From positions 3,146,885 through 3,210,884 of the forward strand of contig OZ244720.1 of NCBI GenBank assembly GCA_965219085.1: a DNA stretch of 64,000 bases. The letters are read 5' to 3'. The DNA is from Dehalococcoidia bacterium (GTDB taxonomy: Bacteria; Chloroflexota; Dehalococcoidia; UBA2979). Below, in pieces: positions 15,640 to 59,473 of this stretch (position 1 is its first letter; each line of letters opens with the position of its first letter). A program made the position numbers and the translations under genes. Under the pieces are notes generated by a model. It was not told where the DNA came from. It worked only from the letters and a program-made list of their open reading frames with translations, and did not search any database.

Positions 15640-15728
15640 GCCGAAGTGGCGGAATGGGTAGACGCGACGGTCTCAAACACCGTTGGGGTTAATGCCCCGT
15701 GTGGGTTCGAGTCCCACCTTCGGCACCA
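15640..15728 (+). tRNA. tRNA-Leu (anticodon CAA), long variable arm, CCA encoded
   Basis: GCCGAAG/CTTCGGC acceptor stem, anticodon loop CTCAAAC, variable arm GGGGTTAATGCCCC, T-arm GTGGGTTCGAGTCCCAC. Confidence 0.9.
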
Positions 15729-15914
15729 GTGTTCTCAACGGTTTCCCGGAATCGGGCCTCGGCGAATTGTACTCACCAGGGTGATCAGTTGTGGCCATCT
15801 TGTGGCCATCGTTGGATCGCACGGCGCGCGCGGCCGTGCGAACTGCGGGATCTCACCCGCGCGATCGGCTCCGCGGGGTCACGCTTCTGTCGGATCGCCG
15901 TCGCTTCTCGCGGC

Positions 15915-16370
15915 TCATTCTCGGCCTTGCGAGACCCGCGCCCTGTAGGCACGCTGCTTCTCGGCATTCAGGCACTGTTTGCTGCAGAACCGGGTGTTCA
16001 CTCGGACGGCTCGGAACATCCTTTTGCAGGAGGCGCGCTCACAGAGTCGGAAGTCGTGCCCTGCCGCAAGGTCGTTAGCAGCCATGATGGCGAGGCCAGC
16101 GAGCGCAGAGGGCGCCGACCATCGAAGCGAGGCCCGTCTCCCGTCGCTGCTCGGCGACAAGGCCTGCCGAGCGGGGGCCTGGAGGTGATTGAGCGGCACG
16201 AAGGCCCGGACCTGCTCCTCGACCGACCGGCCCGACTCGATGCCCCACTTCGCCGAGTGGAGGGCCGTGCGGAACGCTAACGCCGCAGCCATGAAGTCAG
16301 GTACGCATTCGCGATATGACGCACGAAACTCAGCCCTGCCGGGCTCGGGCCATTCCCTCTCGAGCATCAC
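15915..16370 (-). CDS. CGNR zinc-finger (ABATE-like) putative stress-responsive regulator
   Basis: C-terminal CERASCKRMFRAVRVNTRFCSKQCLNAEKQRAYRAR resembles the zf-CGNR motif (C..C..F.D.SrN..r.wCs..C.NraK). Confidence 0.5.
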   Translation of the reverse strand: MMLEREWPEPGRAEFRASYRECVPDFMAAALAFRTALHSAKWGIESGRSVEEQVRAFVPLNHLQAPARQALSPSSDGRRASLRWSAPSALAGLAIMAANDLAAGHDFRLCERASCKRMFRAVRVNTRFCSKQCLNAEKQRAYRARVSQGRE

Positions 16371-16421
16371 CGAGGCCTCAGGGTCCAGTGGTTTTTGTGA
16401 GACGCGGAGATGCGGATCCCA

Positions 16422-16904
16422 CTAATGTAGGTCGCGCCACAGGCGCGGGAAGAATCTCCACCACGTTTGCGTCATGGTCTCACGGCTCAGTCTGTCGTCC
16501 CACCCTATCGTCGAATCGAGCTTGCGTAGCAAGACATGCGGCTTCGAACTAGAAGTCTGCGCGAGCCATCCGTCGCCGGCCCACCGATAGAGCGTCCCCT
16601 GCGGCAGCGTGACCTCAGCGGTACGTTGCAGGAGTACCCCCGTCGGTCCGTAGCGATCTGACCACTCGATGATACGCTTAGCTTCGAGGGCAGTGGGCGG
16701 CGTGAATTCGCTCTCACGGTCGGGATCAGGGACGTCCGCGATGTCGACGTATGCCGGATTCCGCGTGCGGCTCTTCGCGCCGTCCGGGTCCTCCCTCCAC
16801 AGGTCGAACCGCAAGGGGGCCTGTCCTTCGCTTACTGGCACCACATAGCCGTCACGGATCGTGTACTGATCGAACCGCCACCACGGGAAAGCGTGTAGAT
16901 CCAT
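16422..16904 (-). CDS. Hypothetical protein (160 aa), no recognisable domain
   Basis: Coding-like composition and length only. Confidence 0.35.
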   Translation of the reverse strand: MDLHAFPWWRFDQYTIRDGYVVPVSEGQAPLRFDLWREDPDGAKSRTRNPAYVDIADVPDPDRESEFTPPTALEAKRIIEWSDRYGPTGVLLQRTAEVTLPQGTLYRWAGDGWLAQTSSSKPHVLLRKLDSTIGWDDRLSRETMTQTWWRFFPRLWRDLH

Positions 16905-17007
16905 ACGTTACCCTATCGTTACTCTGTAAGAGTAACGCAGGCGAGCCTACTCTGCAGGCGTAGCAGGCCTTCACCCGAGGGCCGCCGCAGTCCGAATCGA
17001 GAAGACA

Positions 17008-17421
17008 ATGTCGCTCACCCCGGAGCCGAGTGACGCGAATGCCACCAGCATTCGTGTTGGCATCTACGTCGACGGCCCCAATCTCTACGGAGGCGCGCGG
17101 CGCCTCACTGGTGATGGCCGTCTCGAGATCCCTGCCCTGGTGCGGTCGATCGCGAGAGGCCGGGAGATTACGGACATGTGCTTCTGGACCGGGGTCCTGA
17201 ACCAGGCTCAGGGACCAGAAGCCTACGCGAAGCAACGGCGCTTCTTTGCCAACATCGAACGCCGAGTTCCCAACGGGAGGATCGGGCGCGCTACGATTCG
17301 GGACCGCGGCACTCGACAAGTAGAGAAGGGTGTCGATGTTGGGATCGCACTCGACCTCGTCATGGGCGCCTACGAGGATAGGTGGGATGTCGTCCAAGTC
17401 GCGATGTATCTGAGCACTTGA
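17008..17421 (+). CDS. NYN/LabA-like domain protein, possibly 3'-truncated
   Basis: IRVGIYVDGPNLYGG and GVDVGIALDLVMGAY match NYN (PIN-like) RNase motifs. The ORF ends where LVSGDSDF would be expected, about 30 nt before an IS5 remnant. Confidence 0.6.
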   Translation: MSLTPEPSDANATSIRVGIYVDGPNLYGGARRLTGDGRLEIPALVRSIARGREITDMCFWTGVLNQAQGPEAYAKQRRFFANIERRVPNGRIGRATIRDRGTRQVEKGVDVGIALDLVMGAYEDRWDVVQVAMYLST

Positions 17422-17452: not shown

Positions 17453-18254
17453 TAGGGATGGTCTGATCAGGTGGCGTGTCGGGCGCGGTGGGTATCGATC
17501 AGCGGGCCGAGCCGCGCTGTGGGGGCCCGATACCGCGGTCCATGGGTGGTCTCGCCTCCATGTCGCTCCGGAAGCGCTCCGGCGGGCGATTCGGGACGCA
17601 CGGCTCCCGCGATCACGCGAGCTGAGGCTCAGCTCGCAACAGGTTCGTGAAACCGAGCAGCAGCATGAGACGCTGGCGGTTCTTCTCAAGACCCCGGTAG
17701 CGCACCTGCGCGTACCCGAAGTGCCGCTTCACGTAGAGAAACGGATGCTCAGCCTTGGCGCGCACCGAGGCCTTGCGCCGCTCCGCCTGCGCCTCCTCGC
17801 CCCCCGGCGCCAGCTGCCGCCTGAGACCCGGGCGCAGCGCCACCTGCCAGCAGGTGGCGGAAGTTGAGGATCGTCGTCTCATCGGGGATCGGCTCGGAGA
17901 GGCTGAGACCGGCGAACTCGAGCATCGAGCGGGAGTCGTAGAGTTCCTGCTCCATGCCGGGGTCGCTGAGGTTGAACCAGAGCTGCAGGCAGTGGATGCG
18001 CAGCATCACGCGCAGCGCGTAGGGGCGGCGTCCGCGGCCGCGCTTCGGGTAGACGGGCGCGATGCGCTGCTCCAGCTCAGCCCAGGGGACGAGCCTGTCC
18101 ATGCGCTCGAGGAACGTCTGCCGCCTCGTCTTGACCTTCTTGTGCTCGTACTCGACGCTGCCGAACGAACGCTGCTGCATGGGGCGCCCCTCTCCGGGTC
18201 GCCCCATGATCGCATCTGCTCACCCGCTCAGGCGAGTTGTTCAGACCATCCCTA
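17453..18254. mobile_element. IS5-family element, internally deleted derivative (802 bp) with intact inverted repeats
   Basis: Terminal inverted repeats TAGGGATGGTCTGAnCA at 17453-17469 and (reverse complement) 18238-18254. The interior holds only N- and C-terminal fragments of an IS5 DDE transposase. Confidence 0.6.
17613..18207 (-). pseudogene. IS5-family transposase fragments. The N-terminal 105 aa and C-terminal 75 aa are kept; the DDE core is deleted
   Basis: ORF 17749..18207 reads MQQRSFGSVEYEHKKVKTRRQTFLERMDRLVPWAELEQRIAPVYPKRGRGRRPYALRVMLRIHCLQLWFNLSD (IS5 N-terminus). ORF 17613..17882 reads AEHPFLYVKRHFGYAQVRYRGLEKNRQRLMLLLGFTNL (IS5 C-terminus). Confidence 0.65.
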
Positions 18255-19638
18255 AACCTGAGCACGCAGCCTGGTAGAGTGCTGAAAGTTTCTGGCACCG
18301 AAGGCCGTAGTTGTCTGGTCCAGGGCGATCTGGCCACGCCCTATGGTTCGTCGATGGTTGTCCGCTGCCACGGCGGCCTCGCGCAGCACGAGCGCGGGCA
18401 ACTCCGGGATCGCTACAGCGACGGCTGACTCGGCGTGGATATCTAGCGACGAGCGCGCGTCTGTAGTCAGTGTCGACGTGCAGCGATTCTGTCAGTCCAA
18501 CGGAGCAGCGACTTTGTCAGTACCGCGCTGGCCGCCGGAGGGTGCCGACCAGGACGCTCAGGCGGCGCTACTTCGCTCTCGCCGGACGGCTCACCCACTC
18601 GGCACGGCGCTGGACCCTGCACCTCCCGAAGCGCTGGCCCTCGGCCGGGCAGCTGGCAGCCGCGCTCGCGCGACTACGGGCGATACCACTCCCGGCCTGA
18701 CGCGCTCACAGCGCCGGCCCGGGTCCGAGCCTCGCGCCAGCATGCCGCGCACGCCTCGCGCTCCCCAGCTCCCGCGCCCTCAGCGCCCCCGAGCTACGCT
18801 GAGCGACGGCTCATGGCTCCGGCCCGCCCCTGGCACCGCCCGGCGAACGCCGGCACGCCCGCCGAACTCTCCGGCAGCCCGGCACCCCGTCCCCTCAAGC
18901 TTCGATCGGTGGATCCGAGATAAGGACGGTGCACTGTGACACCACCTTGCGCGAGTGCGCCCTGAAGTCGAAGGACGGTGCGGGATGACCTGAGTCGTCT
19001 GGAGGCATGCTCGTCGTCGCCAGCCGGTGCAAGTCCGGTCCGGGTAACTGCCAGGAGGCCCGGTAGCAGATCGGCGGCTCGGACCGGAAACGGTCCGGGT
19101 CGAAGCCCGATGTCGAAAGCCCTTGTAGGGGGAGCGACCACACGGTCCGCAGCATGAAGCGAAGCCTGCCGCGTCGTTAGGGTGCCCGCCGTAGCGCGGG
19201 GAAGAGGAGGAGCCGAGCCCAGTCCCTCGGGGTGAAGGCCATGGAAGGGGTGAAGCACCTGGAAGCAACCCCGAAGAACCTCCCGGCGTAGGGGGCGTGG
19301 AACGTGTGGAAGGTGGCGACGGGAACAGGGGAGGCCCTCCCCGGCCCGGCACGACTGCGGAGTGGTGCTGGAGCGGGGCGTCCTATAACCGGTGAGTAGC
19401 CGGGAAGTGGGCGGCCAGCCGGGAGGGAGTCGTACCGCGCCAATCCCTTACCCGACCGTGACCCCGGACGGGGTACGACCTCGCAACGAGGCGGCACGAC
19501 CGGCAGGTGGAACCTCTGGGTCTGACCGGGTAGCGTGCTACGGAGCTACGCCGACCTCCCCGAGCAGCCCCAGCACCTTCTGCCCACTCACAGCGCGAAC
19601 CACCCTCTCACTCCGGGCCTGGATCCGTGCCCGGTCAC

Positions 19639-20992
19639 GTCCCTGCAAGTGGTGTAGCAGTGCACCATCCTGATCATTTGCTAGCTGGCAGCTTGCAGCA
19701 GCACCTCCTCGCCTGAGGCGACCTCGGCCACGGCCGCCGGCAGCGACTGCAGCATCGTCATGTAGCGCCTCCCCTCCGCCCACTCGTCGTGCTGCTCGGC
19801 GAGCACGGCGCCGACCAGCCGCACGACCGCGGCGCGGTTGGGGAAGATGCCGACGACGTTGGTGCGCCGCCGGATCTCCTTGTTGAGGCGTTCCAGCGGG
19901 TTGTTCGACCAGACCTGCCGCCAGTGCTGGGACGGGAAGGCCGTGAACGCCAGGATCTCGGGTCCGGCGTCGGCGAGCAGCGCCGCGGCCTCGGGGAAGC
20001 GCTCGGCGAGCTGCTCCACCACACGGGCGTGCTGGGCCTGCACCTCGGCCGCAGAGGACTGCTCGTAGATCGTCCGCACCGTCGTCGCCACCAGCTTCTC
20101 GGCGCTCTTCGGCACCCGGGTGAGCAGGTTGCGCATGAAGTGCGTCCTGCAGCGCTGCCAGGAGGCGCCGGCGAAGACGGTCGCGATCGCGTCTCTGAGC
20201 CCCTGGTGGGCGTCCGAGGTCACCAGCTCGACCCCGGACAGACCGCGCGCCACGAGCCCGCGCAGGAAGCTCAGCCAGAACGCCCCGTCCTCGGAGGTAC
20301 CGACGTCGATGCCCAGCAGCTCGCGCTTGCCTGTCGCGTTGACGGCGGTGGCGACGACCACGCTCACCTGGACGACGCGGCCCTCCTCGCGCACGAGCTG
20401 GGTGAGCGCGTCGAGCCAGAGGTAGCGGTAGGGGCCCGAGTCGAGCGGCCGCTCGAGGAAGCTCTCCACGACCTCGTCGAGCTCGGCGCAGATGCGCGAG
20501 ACCTGGCTCTTCGAGATGCCATCACAGCCGAGCGAGCGCACGAGGTCGTCGACGCGGCGCGTCGAGACGCCCTCGACGTAGGCCTGCGTGACCACGGAGA
20601 GGAGGGCGCGCTCCGAGCGCCGCCGCGGCTCGAGCAGCGAGGGGAAGTAGCTGCCCTCGCGCAGCTTCGGGATGCCCAGTTCGATCGTGCCCACGCGCGT
20701 GTCCCAGCGCCTGGGCCGGTAGCCGTTACGCCGGGTGAGGCGCGTCTCGCTGCGCTCGCCGTGGGCGGCGCCGATCTGCGCCGAGACCTCGGCGTCCATC
20801 ACCGCCTGGGCGAGCACCGCGACCGCCTCGCGCAGGAAGTCAATGTCAGCTCCGTCCGCCTGCTTGCGAAGCAACTCCAACAAGTCCACGCTCTCCTTGA
20901 CCACCGTAGTCCTCCTTCACGTGACTGTTTCCTGTGTGAAGGATGGCGCGGTGGTCTCCTACGTCCACCTCTGTGACACCACTTCCTGGGAC
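19639..20992. mobile_element. IS256-family insertion sequence, apparently intact
   Basis: Imperfect terminal inverted repeats GTCCC(T/A)G(C/G)AAGTGGTGT..CAG at 19639-19660 and 20971-20992, flanking a full-length mutator-type transposase. Confidence 0.7.
19681..20904 (-). CDS. IS256-family (mutator-type) transposase, 407 aa
   Basis: Family N-terminus VDLLELLRKQADGADIDFLREAV, plus DDE core motifs (LWLDALTQLVREEGRV, SDAHQGLRDAI, CRTHFMRNLL). Confidence 0.85.
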   Translation of the reverse strand: MVKESVDLLELLRKQADGADIDFLREAVAVLAQAVMDAEVSAQIGAAHGERSETRLTRRNGYRPRRWDTRVGTIELGIPKLREGSYFPSLLEPRRRSERALLSVVTQAYVEGVSTRRVDDLVRSLGCDGISKSQVSRICAELDEVVESFLERPLDSGPYRYLWLDALTQLVREEGRVVQVSVVVATAVNATGKRELLGIDVGTSEDGAFWLSFLRGLVARGLSGVELVTSDAHQGLRDAIATVFAGASWQRCRTHFMRNLLTRVPKSAEKLVATTVRTIYEQSSAAEVQAQHARVVEQLAERFPEAAALLADAGPEILAFTAFPSQHWRQVWSNNPLERLNKEIRRRTNVVGIFPNRAAVVRLVGAVLAEQHDEWAEGRRYMTMLQSLPAAVAEVASGEEVLLQAAS

Positions 20993-21183
20993 GCTACCCC
21001 GTGCCCCCGCCCGTGGTCCGGCGAGGGCAACTCGCGCGCGCTGTCCCGACTGCCAACGACGCCACGGCCGATCGGCCTGCGTCGCTACAGCCGCTCCCCG
21101 TGCGGACGCAAAGCCGTGGGCGTTCGAGCGCGCCGCTGGCGCTAGAATCCGGCCGAAGCCAATTCCTATCCCGGGGGGTCACG

Positions 21184-24391: not shown

Positions 24392-24805
24392 CTACGAGGC
24401 CGACAAGACACGCCGACCGTCAAACGGGCGGGGGGGCTTCACCCGGTCTTCGAGCCAGCTCACCAGCTCCGCGAACCGGAACGCGTTGGTCTCGAACAGC
24501 TTCATGAAGAACTCGTGGGCTGCACGGTCGTCGCAGTCGATGAAGTGGCCATTCCCGCGCAGGAAGACATCCGTGACGAAGAAGGCCACTCGCTTGTTCC
24601 CGTCCACGAAGGGGTGGTTCACGGCAAGGCTCTCCATGAGTGCCGCCGCCTCCTCGGTCAGGCTCTCCTAGTACCCGAGTTGCGGCCGCATCACTGCCGC
24701 CGCGAGGGCGCCTTCATCACGGATCCCAGCACTGCCACCGAATTCGTCGATCAGGACGACGTGCATGGCCACGACTTCCTCGATCGTCGGGAAGTCGTGG
24801 GTCAC
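24392..24805 (-). pseudogene. doc: Doc (Fic/Doc-family) toxin with an in-frame amber codon at codon 46
   Basis: GTG overlapping the antitoxin TGA. VTHDFPTIEEVVAMHVVLIDEFGGSAGIRDEGALAAAVMRPQLGY, then TAG (plus-strand cta at 24668-24670) where Tyr is expected. The same frame continues ESLTEEAAALMESLAVNHPFVDGNKRVAFFV (Doc motif HxFxDGNKR). Confidence 0.7.
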
Positions 24806-25029
24806 TTCGCCAAGAGCTCACCAAGGAGGCGATGTCGCTCGACACTCGCCCGGAAGTGCTCGATTATCTCCGGGCGGATCGTCTGGCGGGCCTTCTTCTC
24901 GAGATACCCACTCATCGCGTCTTCGAGCACTGCCTGGAAATGACGCCCTTCTTCCCGGGCAGCCGCTCGCAGCGCGGCCAGTAGCTCGGGCGATGCCTGG
25001 CTGGAAAACTTCTGGCGCGTCTGAGCCAT
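24802..25029 (-). CDS. Antitoxin of the Doc module (RHH/Phd-functional analog), intact
   Basis: 75 aa, MAQTRQKFSSQASPELLAALRAAAREEGRHFQAVLEDAMSGYLE. Stop overlaps the Doc start (GTGA). Confidence 0.6.
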   Translation of the reverse strand: MAQTRQKFSSQASPELLAALRAAAREEGRHFQAVLEDAMSGYLEKKARQTIRPEIIEHFRASVERHRLLGELLAK

Positions 25030-25170
25030 CGCGCACCCCCCTCGCTGGTTGCTGTCCCTATTGTCGCGTCGGGCGATCCCGTGTCAAGAACCAGCTTGAC
25101 GCCACGAGCTCATCGAGGACATCGGCGAGTGTGAAGGAGTCACCCCCGCAGCGTAGCCCCGATTCGGCGG

Positions 25171-25443: not shown

Positions 25444-25654
25444 GATGCAACGCTCGCAGGTTTGGCAAGCGTTGCCAATACGCCCCTCGGGCCTTGCACT
25501 GCGGATTCCCGGCGGAGGTCGCCAGCGCTACCCGACGGTGGGGCCAGGCGATCCGGTTGAACCGGCCGTCCTGCTGGAGATGCAGCGCCTGCTGCTCGCC
25601 CGGCACGCCGCTCGAGGAGCACGGCGGGCGCCTGCGAGACCAACAGAACTAGAT

Positions 25655-39466: not shown

Positions 39467-39495
39467 GCAGACTGCCTCGCGCCGGCGCGACGGGC

Positions 39496-42800: not shown

Positions 42801-45021
42801 ATCGCCGTCGAGGACGTGAACGAGCGGCCGGTGGCGGTCCCAGACATCCCACCGGCGACCGACGAGGACACGGGCGACCACCTTCGCCGTCCTCGCGAAC
42901 GACGAAGACCCCGACGACGGCGACACCCTGGAAGTGACGCTGACGAGCAGCCCGGACCCCGGGCGCGTCGCGCTGGATCCGAGCACGCAAATGGTGACCT
43001 ACACACCGGCTCAGAACGACCACGGGACGTACACGTTCCGCTACACAGCCTCGGACGGGGTCCTTACCAGCGCCCCCCTGGTCACGGTCACGGTCAACCG
43101 GGTGAACGACGCGCCCGTGTCACCGAGTCGGCGCCCGCGCGATCCGTGTCTGAGGACGCCGAGGCCGACGCACCCGTCGGCGAACGTGTCGAGGCGACAG
43201 ACGCCGACGAGGGCGACACGGTCACGTACAGCCTCTCGGGTGCTGATGCGTCCCTCTTCGAGATCGACGCCGACGGTCAGATCACCGTCTCGAACAGCGC
43301 GATCCTCAACGCGACCACCGACGCCACCGCCATGCTCATGCTCACCGTCACCGCCGATGACGGGAACGGAGGCGAGGCGACAGTCGAGGTGACCATCACC
43401 GTCACGGCCGGGCCGGTAGGACCACCGATCATCATCGGCGGTGGTGGTGGCGGCCCCTCCGGGCCCAGCCCGAGCGATGTCGACTTCGAGTGGAACGTGA
43501 CGCGCGACATCGATGATCTCGCCGGCGGGCAACACCATGGCGACCGGCCTCTGGTCGGACGGCGAGACGCTGGGTGGTCGACAACGCCGACGGCGCCGGC
43601 GACGCCGTCTACGCCTACGACCTCGCGACGGGCGAACGCCTCGAGCAGCGCGAGTTCGAACTCGACAACGCCAACCTCGCGCCTCGCGGCCTCTGGTCCG
43701 ACCCCAGCACCATCTGGATCTCCGACAGCGGCAAGGACAAGCTCTTCGCACACGACCTCGCGAGCGGCGAACGCCTGCCCGACTCCGACCTCGCACTGCA
43801 CCCCGACAACAACGACCCACGCGGCATCTGGTCCGACGGCTCGACCATGTGGGTCCTCGGCGACCACGACGACGCCCCCTTCGGCTACGACCTCGCGACC
43901 GGCGAGCTGGTCGCCCGGCACGCCCTCGACTCCGCCAACGACGACCCGCGCGGCCTCTGGTCGGACCGCGTCACGGTCTGGGTCTCCAACCACGACCCCA
44001 AGCGCCTCTTCGCCTACCGCCTCGAGGACGGCGAGCTCGTGCGCAACAGCGACGGGGAGTTCGGGGATCTGAGCAGGGCCAGCAACAGCAGCCCGCGCGG
44101 CCTCTGGTCGGACGGCGACGTCATGTACGTCGCCGACAAGAGCGACGACAAGGTCTACACCTACAACATGCCCGACGCCATCGACGCCCGTCTCACCTCG
44201 CTCACCCTCAGCGGCATCGACATCGGCGAGTTCCTGCCGGGTCGGACGGAGTACGAGGGCGTCGTCGCCGAGGGCGTGACGGAAACCACGGTCGAGGCCG
44301 AGCCCGCGCAGGACGACGCGGGCGCTCCCACCCACCCGCCCGACGCCAACGAGGAGGCCGACGGCCACCAGGTGGCGCTGGACGGAGTCTCCGAGATCAC
44401 CGTCACCGTGACCTCGGCGGACGGCAGCCGCGAACGCGTCTACCGCGTGGGGCTCGGCGATCCGGAGCGGGCAGCCACGAGCGAGCCCGGATTCGGCTGC
44501 TTCCGCGGCGATGTCGCCGTCGGCTTCAGCCTCCTCGTCTACGCAGGGGCAGCATCGAGGATCTGGAGGCTTGCGCGCGGGACCGGCACATCGTGGCCCT
44601 CTACGCGCTGCACGGCGGCGTCCACGTCTCCTACATCCTCGAAGCGCCCGAGTTCGTGTACCAGCCCTTCGTCGAGCTGTTCGCGGACGGCGTGCCCCCG
44701 GTCACACCGCTGACCGTCAGGAGCGACGGGCCGCCCTCAGCGGACCCGAACCCGGGCGCCGGCGACATCGTGGAGCCTGGGCAGGACTGCATGAGTGGCG
44801 ACATCGTCGAGGGCTTCAGCCTCGTCGTCTACGAGGGCGGGAGCGTCGAGAACCTCCGGGCCTGCGCGCGGAGCCGGGGCGCCACAGCCCTCTACACGCT
44901 CGACGGCGGCGAGTTTGTCTCGCTCATCCTCGGTGCGCCGGACCTCGTCGACGACCCCTTCCGCGAGCTGTTCCCCGGCGGGCTCGCCCCGGTCACCCCG
45001 CTGATCGTCAGGAGCAACTGA
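39856..45021 (+). pseudogene. Giant adhesin-like gene continuation: propeller half, Ig-like, at least 6 cadherin repeats, a 5x blade-like repeat, cadherin-like beta sandwich, and a tandem unfamiliar C-terminal module. Broken by several frameshifts
   Basis: Cadherin repeats with DVNEPPV/VTVTDVDE (for example WSLEGDNASDFTIGESTGVLRFMAPPDFD, LSYSLAVTGFTSDPPFEIDEHTRQITVATGTVLNHEGQETYGVTVTVQDDFNATASATFNIAVEDVNERPV). The reading frame hops between ORFs 40181, 40649, 41322, 41737, 42300, 43574, 43513 and 44511. One example: near 43570 CTGGGTGG where CTGTGGGTGG is expected. Confidence 0.5.
43537..44190 (+). repeat. Five tandem 45-48 aa blade-like repeats (consensus PRGLWSDGxTxWVxDxxxxKLFAYxLxxGERL) within the adhesin
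   Basis: Protein-level periodic repeats beginning GLWSDGETLWVVDNADGAGDAVYAYDLATGERL, GLWSDPSTIWISDSGKDKLFAHDLASGERL, GIWSDGSTMWVLGDHDDAPFGYDLATGELV, GLWSDRVTVWVSNHDPKRLFAYRLEDGELV, GLWSDGDVMYVADKSDDKVYTYNMPD. Confidence 0.5.
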
Positions 45022-45288
45022 CTTCCGGCAGCGAGGTCCAGCCAGTGACGTCACGGCGGACTGTCGGGGGAAGCGCGTACTGCGCTCCCCCTTCGCGCGC
45101 CAGGCAAGAGCCACGCTCAGGAGCAGCGGGACGCGCACGGTCATGTCGTCCTGGAGCAGCGACACCGATCACGAGCTAGATCTCGGCCGCGAAGCCCGCG
45201 ACCACGAGCAGCGCGCGCCGGGCCCAGTCACCTCGCCCACCGCGGCGCGCCATTACCTATGATGGCCGCGCCGTCGAGGGGGTGGGCG

Positions 45289-46092
45289 ATGCCCGAGTTC
45301 GAGACGATTCGCTTCGAGGTCGAGGGGCCGCGCGCGACGATCACGCTCAACCGCCCGGAGCGCATCAACGCCTTCAACGGCGCCATGGAGCGCGAGATGC
45401 GCGACGCCTGGACGATCGTGCGCGACAGCGACGCGATCCGCGTCGTGGTGCTGACCGGCGCAGGCGATCGCGGCTTCTGCTCCGGCGTCGACCGCCGCGC
45501 CGAGGACGGCGAGCGCCTCTCCCAGCAGTTGGCGACGAACCTGTGGAACCGCGAGGATGCCGGCGCGTTCCTCGGGCCGAAGAGCAACCGCGTCTACAAG
45601 CCGGTCATCAGCGCGGTCCACGGCATCGCCTGCGGCGGCGCGTTCTACATGCTCGGCGAGTCCGACATCATCGTCGCCTCCGAGGACGCCACCTTCTTCG
45701 ACCCCCACACGACGTACGGTCTGACCGCGGTCTTCGAACCAATCCTCGCGCGGCAGTGGCTCCCCTACGGCGAGGTGATGCGCATGGTGCTGCTCGGCAA
45801 CGACGAGCGGATCAGCGCACGGCGCGCGCTCGAACTCGGGTTCGTGACCGACGTCGTGACCCGCGAGCAGTTGCTGCCGGCCGCCTACGGACTCGCCGAG
45901 CGCATCGCCGCGAAGCCACCGGCCGCCGTGCAGGGCAGCATCTACGCGCTCTGGGAGAGCCTCTCGCTGCCGCTCGGCGCCGCGATCCAGCAAGGCATGC
46001 CGCTCACCGACATCGGCAACGCGGCGGTACGTCCCGAGGAGGTCACGGCCACCTTCGGGGCGGGCGCGGACCGTACGTTCCGCGTGCGCTGA
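45289..46092 (+). CDS. Enoyl-CoA hydratase/isomerase (crotonase family)
   Basis: MPEFETIRFEVEGPRATITLNRPERINAF, LTGAGDRGFCSGVD and KPVISAVHGIACGGAFYMLGESDIIVASEDA are canonical crotonase blocks. Confidence 0.8.
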   Translation: MPEFETIRFEVEGPRATITLNRPERINAFNGAMEREMRDAWTIVRDSDAIRVVVLTGAGDRGFCSGVDRRAEDGERLSQQLATNLWNREDAGAFLGPKSNRVYKPVISAVHGIACGGAFYMLGESDIIVASEDATFFDPHTTYGLTAVFEPILARQWLPYGEVMRMVLLGNDERISARRALELGFVTDVVTREQLLPAAYGLAERIAAKPPAAVQGSIYALWESLSLPLGAAIQQGMPLTDIGNAAVRPEEVTATFGAGADRTFRVR

Positions 46093-46207
46093 GGACAGCG
46101 TGATTCGGCAGGCCGGCGGCGACGGCTCGCTGCGTCGCCGCACATCGATGTGAGTTCGCGGCTGTCGCGAAGGGCGGACACCGTCCGCGGGTACGCAGGG
46201 GGACGCA

Positions 46208-47116
46208 GTGGTCACGATCGGCGACATGTTCCACGTCATCCACATCTACGACGAGCTCCAGCCGCTCGACGACTGGTACGACAGGATCTTCGCGCCCAGG
46301 CGCTCGATGCTGGGCAACTACAGCGCGACCGAGAAGCGCGACGCCTCGCTCTGCTACATCAGCGACTTCTGCATGGAGACGATGGCCCCGGCGCACCGGG
46401 TCGCGGGCGCGGCGGACATGCCGGTCGGCCGGTTCCACCGGCGCTTCGGCAACCACCTGCACTCGATCGCGTGGTTCGTCAGCGACGGCATGCCCGAGCT
46501 CTTCGGGCGGTTGCAGGACGCCGGCGTGAGGCTCTTCACCGACGGGGGAGGCGCCGCGACCGACATCTCGCAGCTCGCCGCGGCGGCGTTCACGCACCCG
46601 CGCGACACGAAGCGCCAGTGGGAGCTGATGGCGGCGACGGGCGACCAGGCGGATCCGACCGCGCGCATCGGGGGCTGGTCCGTCGAGTTCTGGCGCGACG
46701 AGCACCCGATGGGCATCCTCCCCTCGGCGTGGCACATCACCGTCAGCGTGCGCGACCTCGACGAGGGCGCCGGTCTCTACGAGCGGCTGCTCGGCGCCCA
46801 CGTCGTACACGAGGAGGAGGACGCCGCGAAAGGCGCGCGCAGCCGCTACCTCAGCGTCGGCCAGAACACGCTGATCGAGGTGGCGACCCCCACCGGGTCC
46901 GACAGCCTGCTGGCACGCGACCTCGACAGCCGGGGCGAGATCATCCACGCCGTCACATTCCGCACGAGGGACCTCGCCGCCGCGCGGCAACACGTCCTTG
47001 CGCAGGGCGTCGGCGTCGAGGAGGTCTCGCCCGAGACGTTCCTGATCAGCCCCGACGACTCGATGGGCGCCACCCTCTACATCAGCGAGCGGGCAATCCC
47101 CGGAGACCCTCGGTGA
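46208..47116 (+). CDS. VOC-family (glyoxalase/bleomycin-resistance/dioxygenase) two-domain protein
   Basis: Two beta-alpha-beta-beta-beta-like halves (FHVIHIYDEL..., WHITVSVRDLDEGAGLYERLLGAHVVHEEE). Coupled by a 19-codon mini-ORF to the downstream CoA-transferase. Confidence 0.65.
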   Translation: MVTIGDMFHVIHIYDELQPLDDWYDRIFAPRRSMLGNYSATEKRDASLCYISDFCMETMAPAHRVAGAADMPVGRFHRRFGNHLHSIAWFVSDGMPELFGRLQDAGVRLFTDGGGAATDISQLAAAAFTHPRDTKRQWELMAATGDQADPTARIGGWSVEFWRDEHPMGILPSAWHITVSVRDLDEGAGLYERLLGAHVVHEEEDAAKGARSRYLSVGQNTLIEVATPTGSDSLLARDLDSRGEIIHAVTFRTRDLAAARQHVLAQGVGVEEVSPETFLISPDDSMGATLYISERAIPGDPR

Positions 47117-47171
47117 TGCACGGCCCCGCGCTCGCGGCGCGGCTGCGGACGGCAATGGCGAGGGGCGACGC

Positions 47172-49680
47172 GTGACGCTGACGCTGCCGCTCGACGGGCT
47201 CCGCATCGTCGACCTCACGCAGGAGGCGATGGGGCCGTTCTGCACACGGCTGCTCGCCGACTACGGTGCGGAGGTCATCAAGATCGAGCCGCCGGCGGGC
47301 GATCCGGCGCGGGCGCTGCCTCCGTTCGCCGCCGACACGCCCGGACCGGAGCGCAGCGGGACGTTCCTGTTCCTCAACACCAACAAGCGCAGCGTGGTCC
47401 TCGATCTCGAGCTCCCGGCGGACCGTGAACGGCTGCTCGACCTCGTCGCCGGCGCGGACGCGGTGGTGGAGAGTTTCGCGCCCGGCACGCTTGACGCGCT
47501 CGGGCTGGGCTACGAGCGGCTCGCGGCGGTGAACCCCCGGGTCGTGCTGACCTCGATCACGCACTTCGGGCAGGACGGCCCCTACCGCGACTGGCAGGCG
47601 ACCGACCTCACCGTCTACGCGATGGGCGGGCCGATGCTCACCACCGGTCACATCGACCACGAACCGATCCGGGTCGCAGGCCGCATGGCGAGTTACCAGG
47701 TCGGCTACATGGCGGCGCTGGCGACCGCCGTCGGCCTGCACGCGGCGGAGGCGCGCGGCACAGGCGAGCACCTCGACGTGAGCGCGTTCGAGGCGCTCAC
47801 GGACTCGATCGACACACGCCTCACGCGGTTGCAGGGCTACCAGTACTCCGGCAGCCTCGCGCAGCGCGGTTCGCTCGCCCGGGGCGTTGGCATGGGCACG
47901 TATCCGTGCGCCGATGGCTTCGTGACGCTGTCCGGCGGATTGCCGGCGCAAATCCCCCGGCTCTTCCGCATGCTCGGCGTCGAGCACCTGCTGGAGCAGC
48001 CGGAGTGGAGCGCACCGGGCATGGCGTTCGACCCGGAGCGCGTCGACGCGTTCGCCGCGTACCTGCTCCCATGGACGCTCGCCCGCACGAAGCGCGAGGT
48101 TCGCGAGGCGTGCCAGGAGTACGGCGTGCTCGGCGCGCCGATCTCGACCGTCGCCGAGGTCCTCGACGACCCGAGCTTCGTCGAGCGCGGCTTCTTCCAG
48201 GAGATCGACCACCCGGAGACGGGCGCGGTCCGCTACCCCGGATACCACTTCACGCTGCATAGCGAGGACGGCCCGATGCCGCCGCGGCGCCGCGCACCGC
48301 TGCTCGGCGAACACACCGACGAGATCCTCGGCGCCCTGCCCGAGCGCCGGCCTGCCGGCCGCCGGGGCGAGGACCGCCTCGGCGATCGGCTCCCGCTCGA
48401 GGGCATGCGCATCCTCGACTTCACCGTGGTGTGGGCGGGGCCCTACGCCACGATGCTGCTCGCCGACTGGGGCGCGGAGGTGATCCGCATCGAGTCCCGG
48501 CAGCACTTCGCGCCGAACACGCGCGGCTTCATCGCCCACATGACGCGCGAGGTGGTGGCCGGCAATCCGGCGCTCGCATCGTTGTATCCGGACGGCGATC
48601 CGGGGGACGAGGCGTGGAACCGCAACGCACTGTTCAACGGGCACGGGCGCGGCAAGCGCTCGATGACGCTCGACCTCACGCGCCCCGAGGGCCAGGAGCA
48701 GTTCGAGCGGCTGGTCGCCATGGCCGACGGCCTGATCGAGAACAACCTGCCACCGAACATCGAGAAGCTCGGCATCACGTGGGAGCGGCTGTCGCGCATC
48801 AACCCCCGGCTCGTGCTGGTGCGCATGCCGGCGTTCGGCGTGAACGGCCCGTATCGCTCCTACCGGACGCTCGGCAACCACATGGAGTCGATTGCGGGGC
48901 ACCCGCCGATCCGCGCCTACCCCGACCTCAGCCTCGAGTACGCGCCGACCGGCGTACCGGCCGACGCTGCCTCCGGGATCGGCGGCGCGCTCGGGTTCCT
49001 GCTCGGCCTTCGCCACCGCGAGCGGACGGAGCGCGGCCTGATGGTGGAGCTCGCGACAGCGGAGAACATGGTGCCGTTCCTCGGCGAGTTCGTCATGGAC
49101 TACGTGCTCAACGGCCGCGAGTGGGAGCACATGGGCAACGACCACTGGTGGCTCGCGCCGCACGGCGCCTACCCGTGCGCCGGCGGCGACCGCTGGATCG
49201 CGATCGCGTGCCGCAACGACCAGGAGTGGCGGGCGCTGTGTGACGTGATGCTGCGCCCCGAACTCGCCGGGGACGTGCGCTTCGCCTCGATGGAGCAGCG
49301 CTACGCGAACCGCCGCGAGCTCGATCGCGAGATCGCCGCGTGGACGGCCGACGTCGAACCGACGTGGCTGATGGGCCGCCTGCAACGTGCCGGCATTCCC
49401 GCCGGCGTGCTGATGAACGAGCACGACCTGTTGCACGACGAGCAGCTTCGCGCGCGACTTCTTCCAGTGGATCGACTCGCCATCGACCGGCCGCCAGCTG
49501 CACCCGACCCGGCCATGGCGGGCCAGCCGCACGCCGGTGCGCCCGGTGCGGCACGCGGCGCGGCTCGGCGAGGACAACGAGTACGTCTACCGCGAACTCC
49601 TCGGCTTCACCGAGGAGCAGTACCGCCGCTTCGAGGAGCTGGGCCACATCGGCGCCGACTACGACCCCTCGGTGCCCTGA
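47172..49680 (+). pseudogene. Third fused double-domain family III CoA-transferase, with a 1-nt frameshift about 75 codons before its true end
   Basis: GTG start overlapping the mini-ORF stop. Domain 1 reads LRIVDLTQEAMGPFCTRLLADYGAEVIKIEPPAGD; domain 2 starts near 48400. Near 49455 the frame must shift by +1 (CGCGCGCGACTTCTTCCAG) to recover DFFQWIDSP...RLGEDNEYVYRELLGFTEEQYRRFEELGHIGADYDPSVP*, ending at 49680. The annotated ORF instead runs on to 49955 in a wrong Arg-rich frame. Confidence 0.6.
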
Positions 49681-49757
49681 TCACCGGCTCACTCGGGAGG
49701 CAGTCAGGGAGATCGCGCGCTCTGAGGCGGCTCACGCCGGCGCCAGCGCCATCACGC

Positions 49758-51683
49758 TCACGGCGGCCAGACGAGCAGGATCAACGGTACGGCGACGACT
49801 GTGATCACGGCCTCGAGGGGCAGCCCCAGCCGCCAGTAGTCGCCGAAGCGGTAGCCGCCCGGGCCCATCACCAGCAGGTTCGACTGATGACCGATCGGCG
49901 TCAGGAACGCGGCCGAGGCGCCGACGGCGACGGCCATGAGGAAGGGGTCGGGTGAGGCGCTGAGCCCGCCCGCGACACCGAGCGCGATCGGCGCCATGAG
50001 CACGGCTGCCGCGGTGTTGTTGACCAGGTCCGACAGGAACATCGAGATCATCAGCACTGCCGCGACGCTCATCCAGAGCGGCAGGTCGGCGCTCACGGCG
50101 ACGAGCGCCTCTGCAACCTGCGCCGCCAGGCCGGTGTCCTCGAGCGCGCCGCCCACGGGGATCATCGCGCCGAGCAGCACGATCACCCTCCAGTCGATCG
50201 CCTCGTACACCTCTTTCGGCGAGACGAGCCCAACGAGTCCCATCACTGCCGCGGCGCCGGCCATCGCCACCTGGATCGGCAGCAGCCGGAGCGCGGCCGC
50301 CGTCACCAGGGCGCCGCCGAGGATCGACACGGCGAGCAGCGCACGGCGCTCTTGCCTGCCGATGCTGAGACCGCGTTCCGCAAGCGGTAAGCACTTCAGC
50401 GCATCGAGCACGGCCGGGAGTTCGCCGCGATTCGCCTGCAGGAGCAACACGTCGCCGACCTCGAGCAGTGTCTCCCGCATGCGCATGCGGGACTGCCGGC
50501 CGCGGCGCGAGACTGCCAGCACGTTCACGTGGTGGCGCCGGCGCAGATCAGCCTGCACCACCGTCCTGGCTCGCAGCGGGGAGTCGGGCATGACCACGGC
50601 CTCGGCCAGGACGACGTCGCCGCCAGCGAGTTCGTCCACGACGTTCGCTCTCCCGCTCGGGGTCTCCAGGCCCGCGTCGGCGACGAGCGCCTCAAGCGCA
50701 TCGCCGCTGGCTTCGACGACGAGCACGTCGCCCGCGCGCAGGAGCTCGAAGCTCGAGGGAAGCGCGATCCTGTAGTCGCTCCGCACGATCGCGACCACGA
50801 CGAAGTCCGCCTGGGACCCTCTGCCGATCTCGAAAATGCTGCGGCCATCCGTGGGGGATCCCTCCGGGATACGGAGCTCGAAGAGGTAGTCACTGATCTC
50901 GAACAGGCGTCCGCTCGCCCCTGCCTCCCGGCGTGGGATGAGCCGCCATCCGACCAGGGCGATGAACGCCAGGCCCGCGACCGCGACGCCGAGTCCGACC
51001 GGTGCGAAATCGAACATCGCGAACGCCTCGCCGGAAGCTTCCGCGCGGAAGGTGGCGATCACGATGTTGGGCGGAGTTCCCACGAGCGTGACCAGGCCTC
51101 CGAGGAGCGAAGCGAAGGCGAGCGGCATGAGGACGGCCGACGGGCCAGCCCCGCCCTGGCGGGACATCCGGATCGCCGTGGGCATCAGGACGGCCAGCGC
51201 CCCGACGTTATTGATGAACGCCGACAGCCCCGCGGCCAGCCCGGAGGTCGCGGCTATCTGGCGAGTGGGCGAGGTTCCCGCGCTCGTGAGCCAGCGGGCC
51301 AGGAGATCGACGGCTCCCGAGTTCTCCAGGCCCCGGCTGGCAACGAGCACGGCTGCGACGGTCACGACCGCCGGGTGGCCAAAGTCGGCAAACGCCTGTT
51401 CACCGGGAATGACGCCGCCCAGCACGAGCGTCAACAGCGCGAGGAGCGCCACCGCGTCGTATCGCCACCGCCCCCACACAAAGAAGACGAACGTGACGGC
51501 GAGCACGAGGACGACGAGCAACTGATCGGTACCCACGGGTGCGTAGGATAGGCGATCGCTCGTCGGCTGTTCGGTCGCTCCGGCCGAGCCCGAGCCCCGA
51601 GCACCGTCGGAGTTCACGCCCGTGCGGGTCCCAGTCCTGCTCCTCGAAGCGGCGGCGGCCACTGCGCCAGGCAACTCAGACAT
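49758..51683 (-). CDS. DASS/SLC13-family anion transporter with two internal TrkA-C domains
   Basis: Roughly 12 TM segments flanking two TrkA-C-like cytoplasmic modules (SDYLFELRIPEGSPTDGRSIFEIG..., DVVLAEAVVMPDSPLRARTVVQADLRRRHHVNVLAVSRRG). The annotated start overlaps the tRNA-Leu repeat, so the true start may lie downstream. Confidence 0.75.
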   Translation of the reverse strand: MSELPGAVAAAASRSRTGTRTGVNSDGARGSGSAGATEQPTSDRLSYAPVGTDQLLVVLVLAVTFVFFVWGRWRYDAVALLALLTLVLGGVIPGEQAFADFGHPAVVTVAAVLVASRGLENSGAVDLLARWLTSAGTSPTRQIAATSGLAAGLSAFINNVGALAVLMPTAIRMSRQGGAGPSAVLMPLAFASLLGGLVTLVGTPPNIVIATFRAEASGEAFAMFDFAPVGLGVAVAGLAFIALVGWRLIPRREAGASGRLFEISDYLFELRIPEGSPTDGRSIFEIGRGSQADFVVVAIVRSDYRIALPSSFELLRAGDVLVVEASGDALEALVADAGLETPSGRANVVDELAGGDVVLAEAVVMPDSPLRARTVVQADLRRRHHVNVLAVSRRGRQSRMRMRETLLEVGDVLLLQANRGELPAVLDALKCLPLAERGLSIGRQERRALLAVSILGGALVTAAALRLLPIQVAMAGAAAVMGLVGLVSPKEVYEAIDWRVIVLLGAMIPVGGALEDTGLAAQVAEALVAVSADLPLWMSVAAVLMISMFLSDLVNNTAAAVLMAPIALGVAGGLSASPDPFLMAVAVGASAAFLTPIGHQSNLLVMGPGGYRFGDYWRLGLPLEAVITVVAVPLILLVWPP

Positions 51684-51684
51684 C

Positions 51685-51728
51685 GTTGGGGTTAATGCCC
51701 CGTGTGGGTTCGAGTCCCACCTTCGGCG
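51685..51728 (+). repeat. Direct repeat of the 3' 44 nt of tRNA-Leu(CAA); putative att site of the island
   Basis: CGTTGGGGTTAATGCCCCGTGTGGGTTCGAGTCCCACCTTCGGC is identical to 15681-15724. Followed by GCCA rather than ACCA, and by about 100 nt of roughly 75% similarity to the sequence after the real tRNA. Confidence 0.75.
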
Positions 51729-59470: not shown

Positions 59471-59473
59471 CCG

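What the first reader, a model, noticed from the sequence alone, without database searches (positions are those of the whole stretch)
15640..51728. About 36-kb island-like segment bounded by tRNA-Leu and an exact copy of its 3' half, with no integrase and heavy IS/TA decay
A complete tRNA-Leu(CAA) (15640-15728) and a 44-nt perfect direct repeat of its 3' end (51685-51728) bracket a region very unlike the flanks. It holds six IS elements or remnants, four decayed toxin genes, an NfeD-flotillin pair and a shattered giant adhesin. This is the classic attL/attR signature of a tRNA-targeting integrative element. No tyrosine or serine recombinase is present anywhere in the interval, so the element looks immobilised and partly overwritten. 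The homology continues at about 75% identity for roughly 100 nt past the repeat on both sides, which is longer than a minimal att core. The right third (45-51.7 kb) carries crotonase, VOC, fused CoA-transferase and DASS-transporter genes that resemble the core flank genes, so the true ancestral boundary may be nearer 45 kb. Alternatively the island captured core-like metabolic cargo
Basis: partly seen in the sequence, partly recalled or inferred. Interest (0 to 1): 0.7.

Follow-up and report, generated by a model that had tools for sequence, protein, structure and literature searches.

The report
Decayed tRNA-Leu genomic island, composite
A real tRNA-Leu gene and a displaced copy of its 3' half bracket 36 kb of insertion-sequence-scrambled DNA in an uncultured Chloroflexota genome; this is an ordinary, old, integrase-less relic of site-specific integration, not one intact mobile element.

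Summary
tRNA-Leu(CAA) lies at 15640-15728. A 44-nt exact direct copy of its 3' part lies at 51684-51727, one base off the reported coordinates. Similarity starts in the anticodon loop and runs about 95 nt past the tRNA end at 81%. No tyrosine or serine recombinase was found.

This tRNA is an integration hot spot. In three related genomes synteny runs through it and stops about 90-110 nt downstream, followed by different DNA in each. One relative has a tyrosine integrase there.

The 36 kb is not one element.
- ADH/Ldh_2 (20-24 kb) and the right third (44-52 kb) have native composition.
- The transporter, CoA-transferase, VOC and flotillin genes sit together, rearranged, in a 94%-identical relative with no tRNA fragment beside the transporter. 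That relative's adhesin is only distantly similar.
- No empty site was found.
- An older, degenerate tRNA-Leu fragment (51602-51637) sits beside the perfect one and is shared with relatives.
- Another relative has a disrupted attR-like remnant about 6 kb from its MmgE/PrpD gene.

Best reading: an old, composite plasticity zone anchored on tRNA-Leu. It was built by integrase-mediated events and then scrambled by insertion sequences. It is an ordinary, known kind of feature.

The parts
15491..15565 (+). tRNA-Gly(GCC), core gene just upstream of the anchor tRNA
   Evidence: ARAGORN; Rfam; conserved in L001, L085 and L087
15640..15728 (+). Intact tRNA-Leu(CAA), the attL-side anchor
   Evidence: ARAGORN; Rfam 60.3 bits
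15672..15819 (+). attL-side att homology unit: anticodon loop to about +91 nt past the tRNA end. Exact core 15681-15724. Contains tandem TTGTGGCCATC x2.
   Evidence: nhmmer 167 bits. Synteny with L001, L085 and L087 ends at 15815-15838.
15915..17421 (.). Atypical-composition ORFs next to attL: weak CGNR zinc finger (15915-16421, -), an unknown ORF (16422-16907, -), and a weak NYN-like match (~17053-17394, +). No integrase.
17453..18254 (-). IS5-like remnant (DUF772 / DDE_Tnp_1 fragments) bounded by 26-nt inverted repeats
   Evidence: (I13)
18515..18685 (+). DDE_Tnp_1_4 transposase C-terminal fragment
19021..19157 (+). Group II intron D1-D4 fragment, with no reverse-transcriptase ORF detected nearby
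   Evidence: Rfam RF02003, 104 bits; six-frame Pfam
19642..20998 (-). IS256-family element (Mutator transposase 19681-20916)
   Evidence: E 3e-134; similar copies in L092
20977..23843 (.). Zn-alcohol dehydrogenase (+) and Ldh_2 malate/lactate dehydrogenase (-), both with native-like composition
24392..25868 (.). Toxin-antitoxin debris: Doc/Fic with an internal stop (~24392-24800, -), RHH/ParD-like antitoxins (for example 25210-25434, -), and a truncated Fic (25611-25868, +)
   Evidence: The antitoxin and Fic match L083 and L092 at 86-94%.
26080..28867 (.). Two IS110-family elements (transposases 26098-27282 + and 27494-28867 -)
   Evidence: 89% copy in L085
28984..29918 (-). Frameshifted DDE_Tnp_1_4 (IS1380-like) remnant
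   Evidence: 94-99% matches in L085 and L087
30426..32731 (+).
   Evidence: 80% nt match to L083 16910-18892
32978..34346 (-). AbiEii toxin fragment (32978-33148) and a weak NYN-like ORF (33924-34346)
34469..38604 (.). Adhesin debris: a C-terminal-like fragment on the - strand (34469-35122), an ASST-like fragment (36697-37254, +), and cadherin-like fragments (+)
   Evidence: (I1-I3)
38642..39798 (-). IS3-family element (HTH_Tnp_1 + rve). Absent from the near-identical strain L082, together with 36427-42349.
40340..45021 (+). Fragmented cadherin-like adhesin. Its 3' part is 72% nt identical to the tail of an intact >4200-aa adhesin in L083 and L085.
45049..49955 (+). Native-composition metabolic block: enoyl-CoA hydratase, VOC/glyoxalase, and a fused CoA-transferase III. 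The last appears frameshifted near its 3' end (relatives are 836 aa and end at about 49680).
49758..51536 (-). SLC13/CitMHS transporter with TrkA-C domains. It is called from ATG 51683 in public annotation; GTG at about 51536 is the more likely start.
   Evidence: orthologues at 94% (L083, L092) and 85% (L131, L132)
51602..51637 (+). Older, degenerate copy of the tRNA-Leu 3' half (29/37 identical). It is conserved upstream of the transporter in L082, L083, L084 and L092.
   Evidence: (score 20 vs a background maximum of 15 in 2556 windows)
51675..51820 (+). attR-side copy of the att unit: anticodon-loop-like CTCAGAC, exact core 51684-51727, G at the discriminator, then about 92 nt at 81% to the attL flank
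   Evidence: 152 bits. Identical in L082.
51821..51995 (.). About 175 nt of unmatched DNA between the att copy and the point where homology with the MmgE blocks of relatives begins
52029..53489 (-). MmgE/PrpD gene, first gene of the right flank. It belongs to a 5.3-kb block (51996-57321) conserved in L088 and L093.

Best explanation
The duplicated tRNA-Leu(CAA) 3' segment is most likely a relic of tyrosine-integrase site-specific integration. The crossover fell in or just 3' of the anticodon loop, and the att homology unit is about 148 bp. This tRNA has been hit repeatedly in the lineage.

The 36 kb between the intact tRNA (attL) and the displaced fragment (attR) is not a single element. It is an old, composite plasticity zone. 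The integrase module or modules have been lost. IS256, IS110, IS3, IS5-like and IS1380-like elements, toxin-antitoxin debris and a group II intron fragment have accumulated. IS-associated inversions and deletions have shuffled in, or kept, genes that belong to the lineage: ADH/Ldh_2, NfeD-like/flotillin, the adhesin, and the crotonase-VOC-CoA-transferase-SLC13 transporter block.

The zone can no longer excise on its own.

Shown directly: the repeat, its boundaries, the absence of a recombinase, the hot-spot behaviour in relatives, the conservation of 'cargo' in relatives, and the second older fragment.

Inferred: that an integrase made the repeat, the order of events, and that IS elements caused the rearrangements.
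For: 1. Signature. There is an intact tDNA plus a 3' fragment in direct orientation. The 44 nt are exact (0 expected by chance) and similarity begins in the anticodon loop. This is the commonest sublocation for island attachment sites: 2083 of 3919 Islander islands (PMC4383910).

2. The right end of attL/attR similarity (about 15819 / 51820) coincides with the point where L001, L085 and L087 each lose synteny with the window (15815-15838). This is what a shared att homology unit would give.

3. L001 carries a Phage_integrase gene plus a PIN module 2.4 kb from the same tRNA. L087 has a GmrSD/IS defence island there. L085 has IS110, TIR and an adhesin.

4. The flank is 19% diverged while the 44-nt core has no differences, including the window-specific variable-loop bases. 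This argues that the two copies came from different molecules rather than from uniform decay of a duplication.

5. A second, degenerate fragment lies 38 nt to the left and is shared with 94% relatives. L093 has a disrupted attR-like remnant between its adhesin/IS DNA and its MmgE side. Together these indicate serial, old events.

6. Composite content.
- Tetranucleotide profile and GC3 are native-like at 20-24 kb and 44-52 kb and atypical elsewhere.
- L083 holds the transporter, NfeD-like/Band_7, VOC and CoA-transferase within about 22 kb, in a different order and orientation. It also holds an intact giant adhesin whose tail is 87% nt identical to L085's but only about 72% to the window's fragments.
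- The near-identical strain L082 differs by a 5.9-kb IS3-containing indel, an extra IS110 and a 425-bp deletion. Turnover is therefore still going on.
Against: - No integrase or excisionase remnant was detected, so integrase involvement is inferred only from anatomy and from a relative.
- No empty site or circular form was seen.
- The flank next to the intact tRNA resembles the relatives' flanks slightly more than the attR flank does (81-88% vs 74-82%). This fits the simple attL = B-O-P' model only if relatives also carry element-derived flanks, or if the attR flank belongs to an older element.
- The core identity could partly reflect general tRNA conservation, since relatives differ at only 1-4 of the 44 positions.
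- I could not see where tRNA-Leu lies relative to the transporter/adhesin region in the 3.5-Mb relative.
- Some apparent pseudogenes may be long-read indel errors.
Confidence: 0.62

Rival explanations
1. Single 36-kb integrative element. One island carrying all of 15.7-51.7 kb, metabolic cargo included, integrated into tRNA-Leu. It later lost its integrase and collected IS elements.
For: attL and attR bracket the whole interval in direct orientation. Much of the interior is IS-, TA- and adhesin-rich and compositionally atypical. The same-species strain L082 has the same right end.
Against: Composition is native-like at 20-24 kb and 44-52 kb. The transporter, VOC/CoA-transferase, flotillin and antitoxin are present at 80-94% nt identity, in a different arrangement, in L083 and L092 with no perfect fragment; the adhesin tail matches at only about 72%. 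Homology with those relatives stops 10-20 nt before the fragment. No relative shows an empty site. An older fragment lies inside the right end.
Confidence: 0.12
2. Non-integrase origin. The 3' half of tRNA-Leu plus about 95 nt of its downstream flank was copied or translocated by IS-mediated or homologous-recombination rearrangement in a highly rearranged, paralogue-rich genome. It only mimics an att pair.
For: The fragment lies exactly at synteny breakpoints on both sides relative to L083/L092 (51665/6) and L088/L093 (51996-52015). The genome region is demonstrably IS-scrambled. No recombinase remains.
Against: The left boundary sits at the anticodon loop and the right boundary at the same point where all relatives diverge. 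The copies are in direct orientation. Flank divergence of 19% against a perfect core does not fit a recent local copy. No IS abuts the fragment. An integrase sits at the same tRNA in L001. A second fragment and the L093 remnant fit serial att use.
Confidence: 0.12
3. Tandem accretion. The copy at 51675-51820 is the junction between a younger island (left) and the P' arm of an older, mostly deleted island (right). The true chromosomal flank then lies further right or has been lost.
For: The attR flank carries degenerate versions of the same tandem 11-mers (TCGTGGCAATC, CTGTGGCTATC) seen next to every intact tRNA copy. It is the most divergent of the five copies, with 8 unique differences. About 175 nt of orphan DNA follow it. 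Two fragments lie side by side. Tandem arrays are known: 125 in Islander.
Against: No third fragment and no integrase were found within the window to 64 kb. The MmgE side looks like ordinary metabolic DNA. This rival overlaps largely with the best explanation and differs only in which flank is ancestral.
Confidence: 0.1
4. Assembly artefact or chimeric MAG join at a repeated tRNA fragment.
For: The related records have contig names with coverage tags that look like long-read metagenome assemblies. That platform attribution is my inference. Some genes look frameshifted.
Against: An independent assembly from another sample reproduces 34.9-55.8 kb, including the transporter-fragment-MmgE junction, at 98.6-100% identity. 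The left flank through tRNA-Leu is syntenic with three other genomes.
Confidence: 0.02

Closest known systems
tRNA/tmRNA-integrated genomic islands as defined by Islander (Hudson, Lau & Williams 2015, PMC4383910)
   Same: There is an intact tDNA regenerated at one end and a displaced 3' tDNA fragment in direct orientation at the other. The fragment starts at the anticodon loop, the 'A' sublocation (2083 of 3919 islands). Tandem and serial use of one tDNA is also known.
   Different: There is no integrase gene inside, which is a required Islander filter. The interior is partly native-composition DNA shared with relatives. Similarity extends about 95 nt beyond the tRNA at only 81%.
E. coli leuX (tRNA-Leu) pathogenicity islands and other tDNA hot spots (review PMC7545054)
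   Same: A tRNA-Leu gene serves as a recurrent integration hot spot that carries different islands in different strains. Typical features are direct repeats, IS elements, adhesins and mosaic decay. That leuX carries the CAA anticodon is from my own knowledge and was not checked here.
   Different: The phylum is different (Chloroflexota MAG). There are no virulence genes and no P4-type integrase is retained. Homology is limited to the general principle.
Proviruses flanked by tRNA-Leu and a 31-nt 3' fragment in IMG/VR
   Same: The same T-arm/acceptor sequence (GGGTTCGAGTCCCACCTTCGGC) occurs as a full tRNA plus a partial copy on five viral contigs.
   Different: The repeat there is only 31 nt (T-arm crossover) and nothing beyond the tRNA is homologous. 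The window has no phage genes.
Integrase-bearing element at the orthologous tRNA-Leu(CAA) in MAG CBDBPS010000001.1 (L001)
   Same: It has the same tRNA, the same about 148-bp att unit (160+ bits with the profile), and variable DNA starting at the same point.
   Different: It retains a Phage_integrase gene (E 1e-23) and a PIN module. It shares no cargo with the window, and its far end was not seen.

Membership tests
tDNA-integrated genomic island (Islander criteria) | Intact tRNA gene plus a cognate displaced fragment on the same replicon in direct orientation | tested here: met
   15640-15728 and 51675-51731, + strand, 44 nt exact, 0 expected by chance
tDNA-integrated genomic island (Islander criteria) | The fragment begins at a recognised crossover sublocation (anticodon loop or T-arm) | tested here: met
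   similarity starts at the 7-nt anticodon loop (CTCAAAC / CTCAGAC) and nothing upstream aligns
tDNA-integrated genomic island (Islander criteria) | Tyrosine (PF00589) or serine integrase gene inside the interval | tested here: not met
   Pfam on about 30 ORFs, six-frame scans of 11 kb of unassigned DNA, and tblastn with the L001 integrase gave no hit. Only DDE/DEDD transposases were found.
Horizontally acquired genomic island (general definition, PMC7545054) | [quoted passage not shown] | tested here: inconclusive
   atypical at 14-20, 24-30 and 34-44 kb (r 0.91-0.95), but native-like at 20-24 and 44-52 kb (r 0.975-0.986). Only 27 kb of flank was available as reference.
Horizontally acquired genomic island (general definition) | Absent from close relatives, which show an empty site | tested here: not met
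   No empty site was found in L001, L085 or L087 (left flank) or in L002, L088-L093 or L135 (right flank). Several interior genes are present in L083 and L092.
Integrative conjugative / mobilisable element | Relaxase, coupling protein or type IV secretion genes | tested here: not met
   No such Pfam family appeared among the ORFs and six-frame scans
Prophage | Phage structural, packaging or lysis genes | tested here: not met
   Pfam and PHROGs on 10 unassigned ORFs gave only one weak hit, of unknown function
Active att pair (excision-competent) | attB or attP junction sequences detectable in populations | not testable with these tools
   Needs raw reads. The only same-species contig (L082) shows the integrated state.

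The most novel reading that the evidence does not exclude
The about 148-bp unit (anticodon loop to +95 nt, with tandem TTGTGGCCATC repeats) may be the attachment site of an uncharacterised family of tRNA-Leu(CAA)-targeting tyrosine-integrase elements in high-GC Dehalococcoidia-class Chloroflexota. Serial integration at this site, seen as two nested fragments, may have drawn native metabolic genes (the SLC13 transporter and the CoA-transferase block) into a zone that could be mobilised.
Probability: 0.15. Interest if true: 0.4.

Novelty: new member of a known kind. Interest (0 to 1): 0.22.

Why it matters
The practical value is for annotation and method. A tRNA-plus-fragment pair is reliable evidence of a past integration event. 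It is not reliable evidence that everything between the two sites arrived together. Here much of the 'cargo' is lineage DNA that IS activity has reshuffled.

The locus also documents a tRNA-Leu(CAA) hot spot, a long (about 148 bp) att unit, and heavy IS-driven turnover in a poorly studied, uncultured Chloroflexota lineage. No new mechanism is implied.

Tried and rejected
- **Empty-site search.** I used the left-flank Usp protein against genome contigs and the right-flank MmgE/PrpD against metagenome contigs. The first gave one relative and the second gave 80 loci. None had tRNA-Leu next to MmgE.
- **Exact-protein lookup of the window's GDH.** Not on record.
- **Integrase remnants.** tblastn with the L001 integrase and other relatives' island proteins found nothing relevant. 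Six-frame Pfam scans were also negative.
- **Origin of the 175-nt orphan DNA at 51821-51995.** There was no match in any fetched locus at DNA or protein level.
- **Viral-contig scans for the att core.** The 30-mer gave nothing. The 22-mer gave 37 stretches, but only the tRNA part was homologous.
- **Structured RNA or Rfam family in the conserved about 95-nt downstream segment.** There was no Rfam hit and no covariation, with 0 compensatory pairs.
- **Similarity of the attR upstream (TCGAAGCGGCGG) to the tRNA 5' end.** Rejected as part of the duplication, because that stretch is conserved in L083 and L092, which lack the fragment.
- **Using flank divergence to decide which flank is ancestral.** The differences were too small to be decisive.
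- **Full reconstruction of the ancestral gene order.** This was not possible with 10-kb flanks and the lookup caps.

Full report
**1. Observation**

ARAGORN and Rfam place tRNA-Gly(GCC) at 15491-15565 and tRNA-Leu(CAA) at 15640-15728. Direct reading and alignment show a 44-nt exact direct repeat, 15681-15724 = 51684-51727. A 22-mer from the repeat occurs exactly twice in the window, against zero in 100 dinucleotide shuffles.

To the left, similarity continues for only 9 nt, into the anticodon loop (CTCAAACAC vs CTCAGACAT). Further upstream nothing belongs to the duplication. To the right, the copy has G where the gene has the discriminator A. Similarity then continues for about 95 nt at 81% (76/94) and ends near 15819 / 51820. 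That flank contains two tandem 11-mers, TTGTGGCCATC. They are degenerate in the right-hand copy.

**2. Content of the interval**

Pfam on the GC3-supported ORFs, plus six-frame scans of the unassigned stretches, gave the following.
-:
  - Weak CGNR and NYN matches next to attL.
  - An IS5-like remnant with 26-nt inverted repeats (17453-18254).
  - A DDE_Tnp_1_4 tail (about 18.5-18.7 kb).
  - A group II intron D1-D4 fragment (19021-19157).
-:
  - IS256 (19.6-21.0 kb).
  - A Zn-ADH and an Ldh_2 dehydrogenase.
  - Doc/Fic and antitoxin debris (24.4-25.9 kb).
  - Two IS110 copies (26.1-28.9 kb).
  - A frameshifted DDE_Tnp_1_4 remnant (29.0-29.9 kb).
-:
  - A Band_7 gene with an unassigned upstream ORF.
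  - An AbiEii fragment.
  - Cadherin-like and ASST-like adhesin pieces on both strands.
  - IS3 (38.6-39.8 kb).
-:
  - Crotonase, VOC and a fused CoA-transferase III.
  - An SLC13/CitMHS transporter whose start faces the tRNA fragment.

No Phage_integrase, Resolvase or Recombinase domain appeared anywhere. tblastn with a relative's integrase found nothing. PHROGs found nothing phage-like.

The exception is the 'NfeD' label, which got no support.

**3. The left side in relatives**

The genome scan with the flanking Usp protein found one relative, L001, labelled a Dehalococcoidia MAG (about 84% nt identity). Homologue and exact-contig lookups added L085 (about 90%) and L087 (about 87%).

In all three, synteny with the window's left flank runs through tRNA-Gly and tRNA-Leu. 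It stops at window 15815-15838, which is 90-110 nt past the tRNA. After that point every genome is different.
- L001 has a PIN/DUF7662 pair and a tyrosine integrase (Phage_integrase E 1e-23).
- L085 has an unknown ORF, IS110, a TIR gene and the 3' end of an intact adhesin of more than 4280 aa.
- L087 has GmrSD, two transposases and restriction-type genes.

This tRNA is therefore a true hot spot for variable DNA. At least one relative keeps the enzyme expected to produce a tRNA-fragment repeat. The point where the relatives diverge coincides with the point where attL/attR similarity ends. This defines an att homology unit of about 148 bp.

**4. The right side in relatives**

With MmgE/PrpD as the query, the metagenome scan gave 80 loci and none had tRNA-Leu nearby.

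The closest relatives found through the protein database share only a 5.3-kb block with the window (51996/52015 to 57321). This block holds PTE, a luciferase-like monooxygenase, an acyltransferase, a small ORF and MmgE. Beyond the MmgE stop codon they differ.
- L088 continues with an acyl-CoA dehydrogenase and a CoA-transferase.
- L093 continues with peroxidases, an FMO and an esterase.

More distant MmgE homologues (87-89%) sit in yet another, stable context. No empty site of the type 'tRNA-Leu then MmgE' exists in the data I could reach.

**5. The 'cargo' in relatives**

The transporter has a 100% match and several close homologues.

L082 is an independent assembly of a near-identical strain. 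It reproduces 34.9-55.8 kb, including the transporter-fragment-MmgE junction (100% over 51600-52040). It lacks 36427-42349 (IS3 plus adhesin repeats) and 46717-47141, and it has an extra IS110 near 43075.

In L083 (94%), the transporter lies within about 22 kb of several of the same genes.
- An intact giant adhesin. Its tail is 87% nt identical to L085's, but only about 72% nt identical to the window's adhesin fragments.
- An antitoxin that matches window 25.2-25.4 kb.
- The NfeD-like/Band_7 pair (80% nt).
- VOC plus the fused CoA-transferase (94.6% nt).

The order and orientation differ, and no tRNA fragment lies beside the transporter: homology stops at window 51665.

L092 (94%) has the transporter among IS3, IS110 and IS256 elements and TA genes, plus an intact Fic. 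Homology again ends at 51666. The 85% relatives keep the transporter in a plain metabolic neighbourhood.

Tetranucleotide profiles agree with this picture. The windows at 14-20, 24-30 and 34-44 kb are atypical. The windows at 20-24 and 44-52 kb are as native-like as the flanks.

Much of the interval is therefore lineage DNA that has stayed together while being reshuffled. It is not freight delivered by one element.

**6. Older att relics**

A local-alignment scan with the tRNA 3' half found one further hit in the window, at 51602-51637. It has 29/37 identity and a score of 20, against a maximum of 15 in 2556 background windows. It lies 38 nt left of the perfect fragment. This degenerate copy is conserved upstream of the transporter in L082, L083, L084 and L092.

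L093 carries a 17-nt exact match to the anticodon-loop/variable-arm segment. About 470 nt further, on the same strand, it has the downstream motif (nhmmer E 2e-4). These lie between its adhesin/IS DNA and its esterase-to-MmgE side, in the same relative orientation as in the window.

The lineage has therefore used tRNA-Leu-type att sites more than once. An attR-like boundary near the MmgE side probably predates the split of these strains.

**7. Mechanism**

The anatomy matches the textbook case. An element's attP contains a copy of the tRNA's 3' part. Integration regenerates the gene and displaces the original 3' part to the far end (PMC4383910; PMC7545054).

The perfect core amid 19% diverged flanks argues that the two copies came from different molecules. 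I therefore assign the repeat to tyrosine-integrase integration (inferred). The loss of the recombination module and the later IS-driven inversions and indels are partly shown by the L082 and L083 comparisons.

Which flank is ancestral remains open. The attR flank is the most divergent of the five copies, with 8 unique differences. This fits either a foreign attP arm or an older island's arm (tandem accretion).

A purely IS- or homology-driven copy of the tRNA half is less likely. The reasons are the boundary positions, the direct orientation and the absence of any IS abutting the fragment.

**8. Caveats**

- The related records have contig names that look like long-read metagenome assemblies. 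That platform attribution is my inference.
- Apparent frameshifts could be sequencing errors. Examples are the CoA-transferase tail, DUF2330, Doc and parts of the adhesin.
- Only 10-kb flanks of relatives could be read, so the full path from tRNA-Leu to MmgE in other genomes is unknown.

**9. Verdict**

The finding is real but ordinary. It is a degenerate, integrase-less, composite genomic island or plasticity zone anchored on tRNA-Leu(CAA) in an uncultured high-GC Chloroflexota genome. It is a new member of a well-known kind, and I score its interest as low.

Noticed in passing
window 14050-15429: A 1.4-kb insertion carrying a DUF2330 gene lies between the Usp gene and tRNA-Gly. The gene is apparently split over two frames (14211-15059 and 14933-15382). 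L001, L085 and L087 have only about 30 nt here. GC is lower here (about 0.66).
   Followed up: partly
window 19021-19157 (+): There is a strong Rfam match to the group II intron D1-D4 region (RF02003, 104 bits). No reverse-transcriptase/maturase ORF and no domain V/VI hit lie nearby. It is probably truncated by the adjacent IS256.
   Followed up: partly
window 47172-49955: The fused CoA-transferase III reads 927 aa here but 836 aa in L082 and L083. An alternative frame ends at 49680. This suggests a frameshift (real, or a long-read indel error) near the inversion breakpoint with the convergent transporter gene.
   Followed up: partly
window 36427-42349, 43075 and 46717-47141 vs L082: The near-identical strain lacks a 5.9-kb segment (IS3 plus adhesin repeat copies). 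It has an extra IS110 at about 43075 and a 425-bp deletion, flanked by a 15-nt repeat, that truncates its VOC gene. This shows ongoing structural turnover within one species.
   Followed up: partly
window 15790-15815 and 51792-51817; L001, L085, L087: Two tandem 11-mers (TTGTGGCCATC), flanked by GATCAG and GGATC, are conserved about 60-90 nt downstream of every tRNA-Leu copy. They may be integrase arm-type binding sites. No RNA structure or covariation supports an RNA role.
   Followed up: partly
window 1-8305 vs 47046-49955 and 60750-62108: There is heavy paralogy of CoA-transferase III, acyl-CoA dehydrogenase and enoyl-CoA hydratase genes on both flanks (repeat families D1-D5, D9, D13 at 66-87%). 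Expansions of MmgE/PrpD and luciferase-like monooxygenase genes add to this. Such paralogues could provide substrates for homologous rearrangement.
   Followed up: no
L083 9470-9782 vs window 59168-59479: In the 94% relative, a 313-nt fragment resembling the 3' end of the window's right-flank crotonase (79%) lies directly upstream of the transporter. This hints at an older adjacency, or at a paralogue fragment at the breakpoint.
   Followed up: no
L092 485-1282: A truncated large serine recombinase (Resolvase + Recombinase domains, 265 aa) lies about 9 kb from the transporter in a 94% relative, within an IS-rich region.
   Followed up: no
window 54000-58000: A second dip in GC (0.65) and in tetranucleotide similarity covers the luciferase-like monooxygenase/PTE part of the right flank. 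This block is nevertheless conserved in L088 and L093.
   Followed up: no
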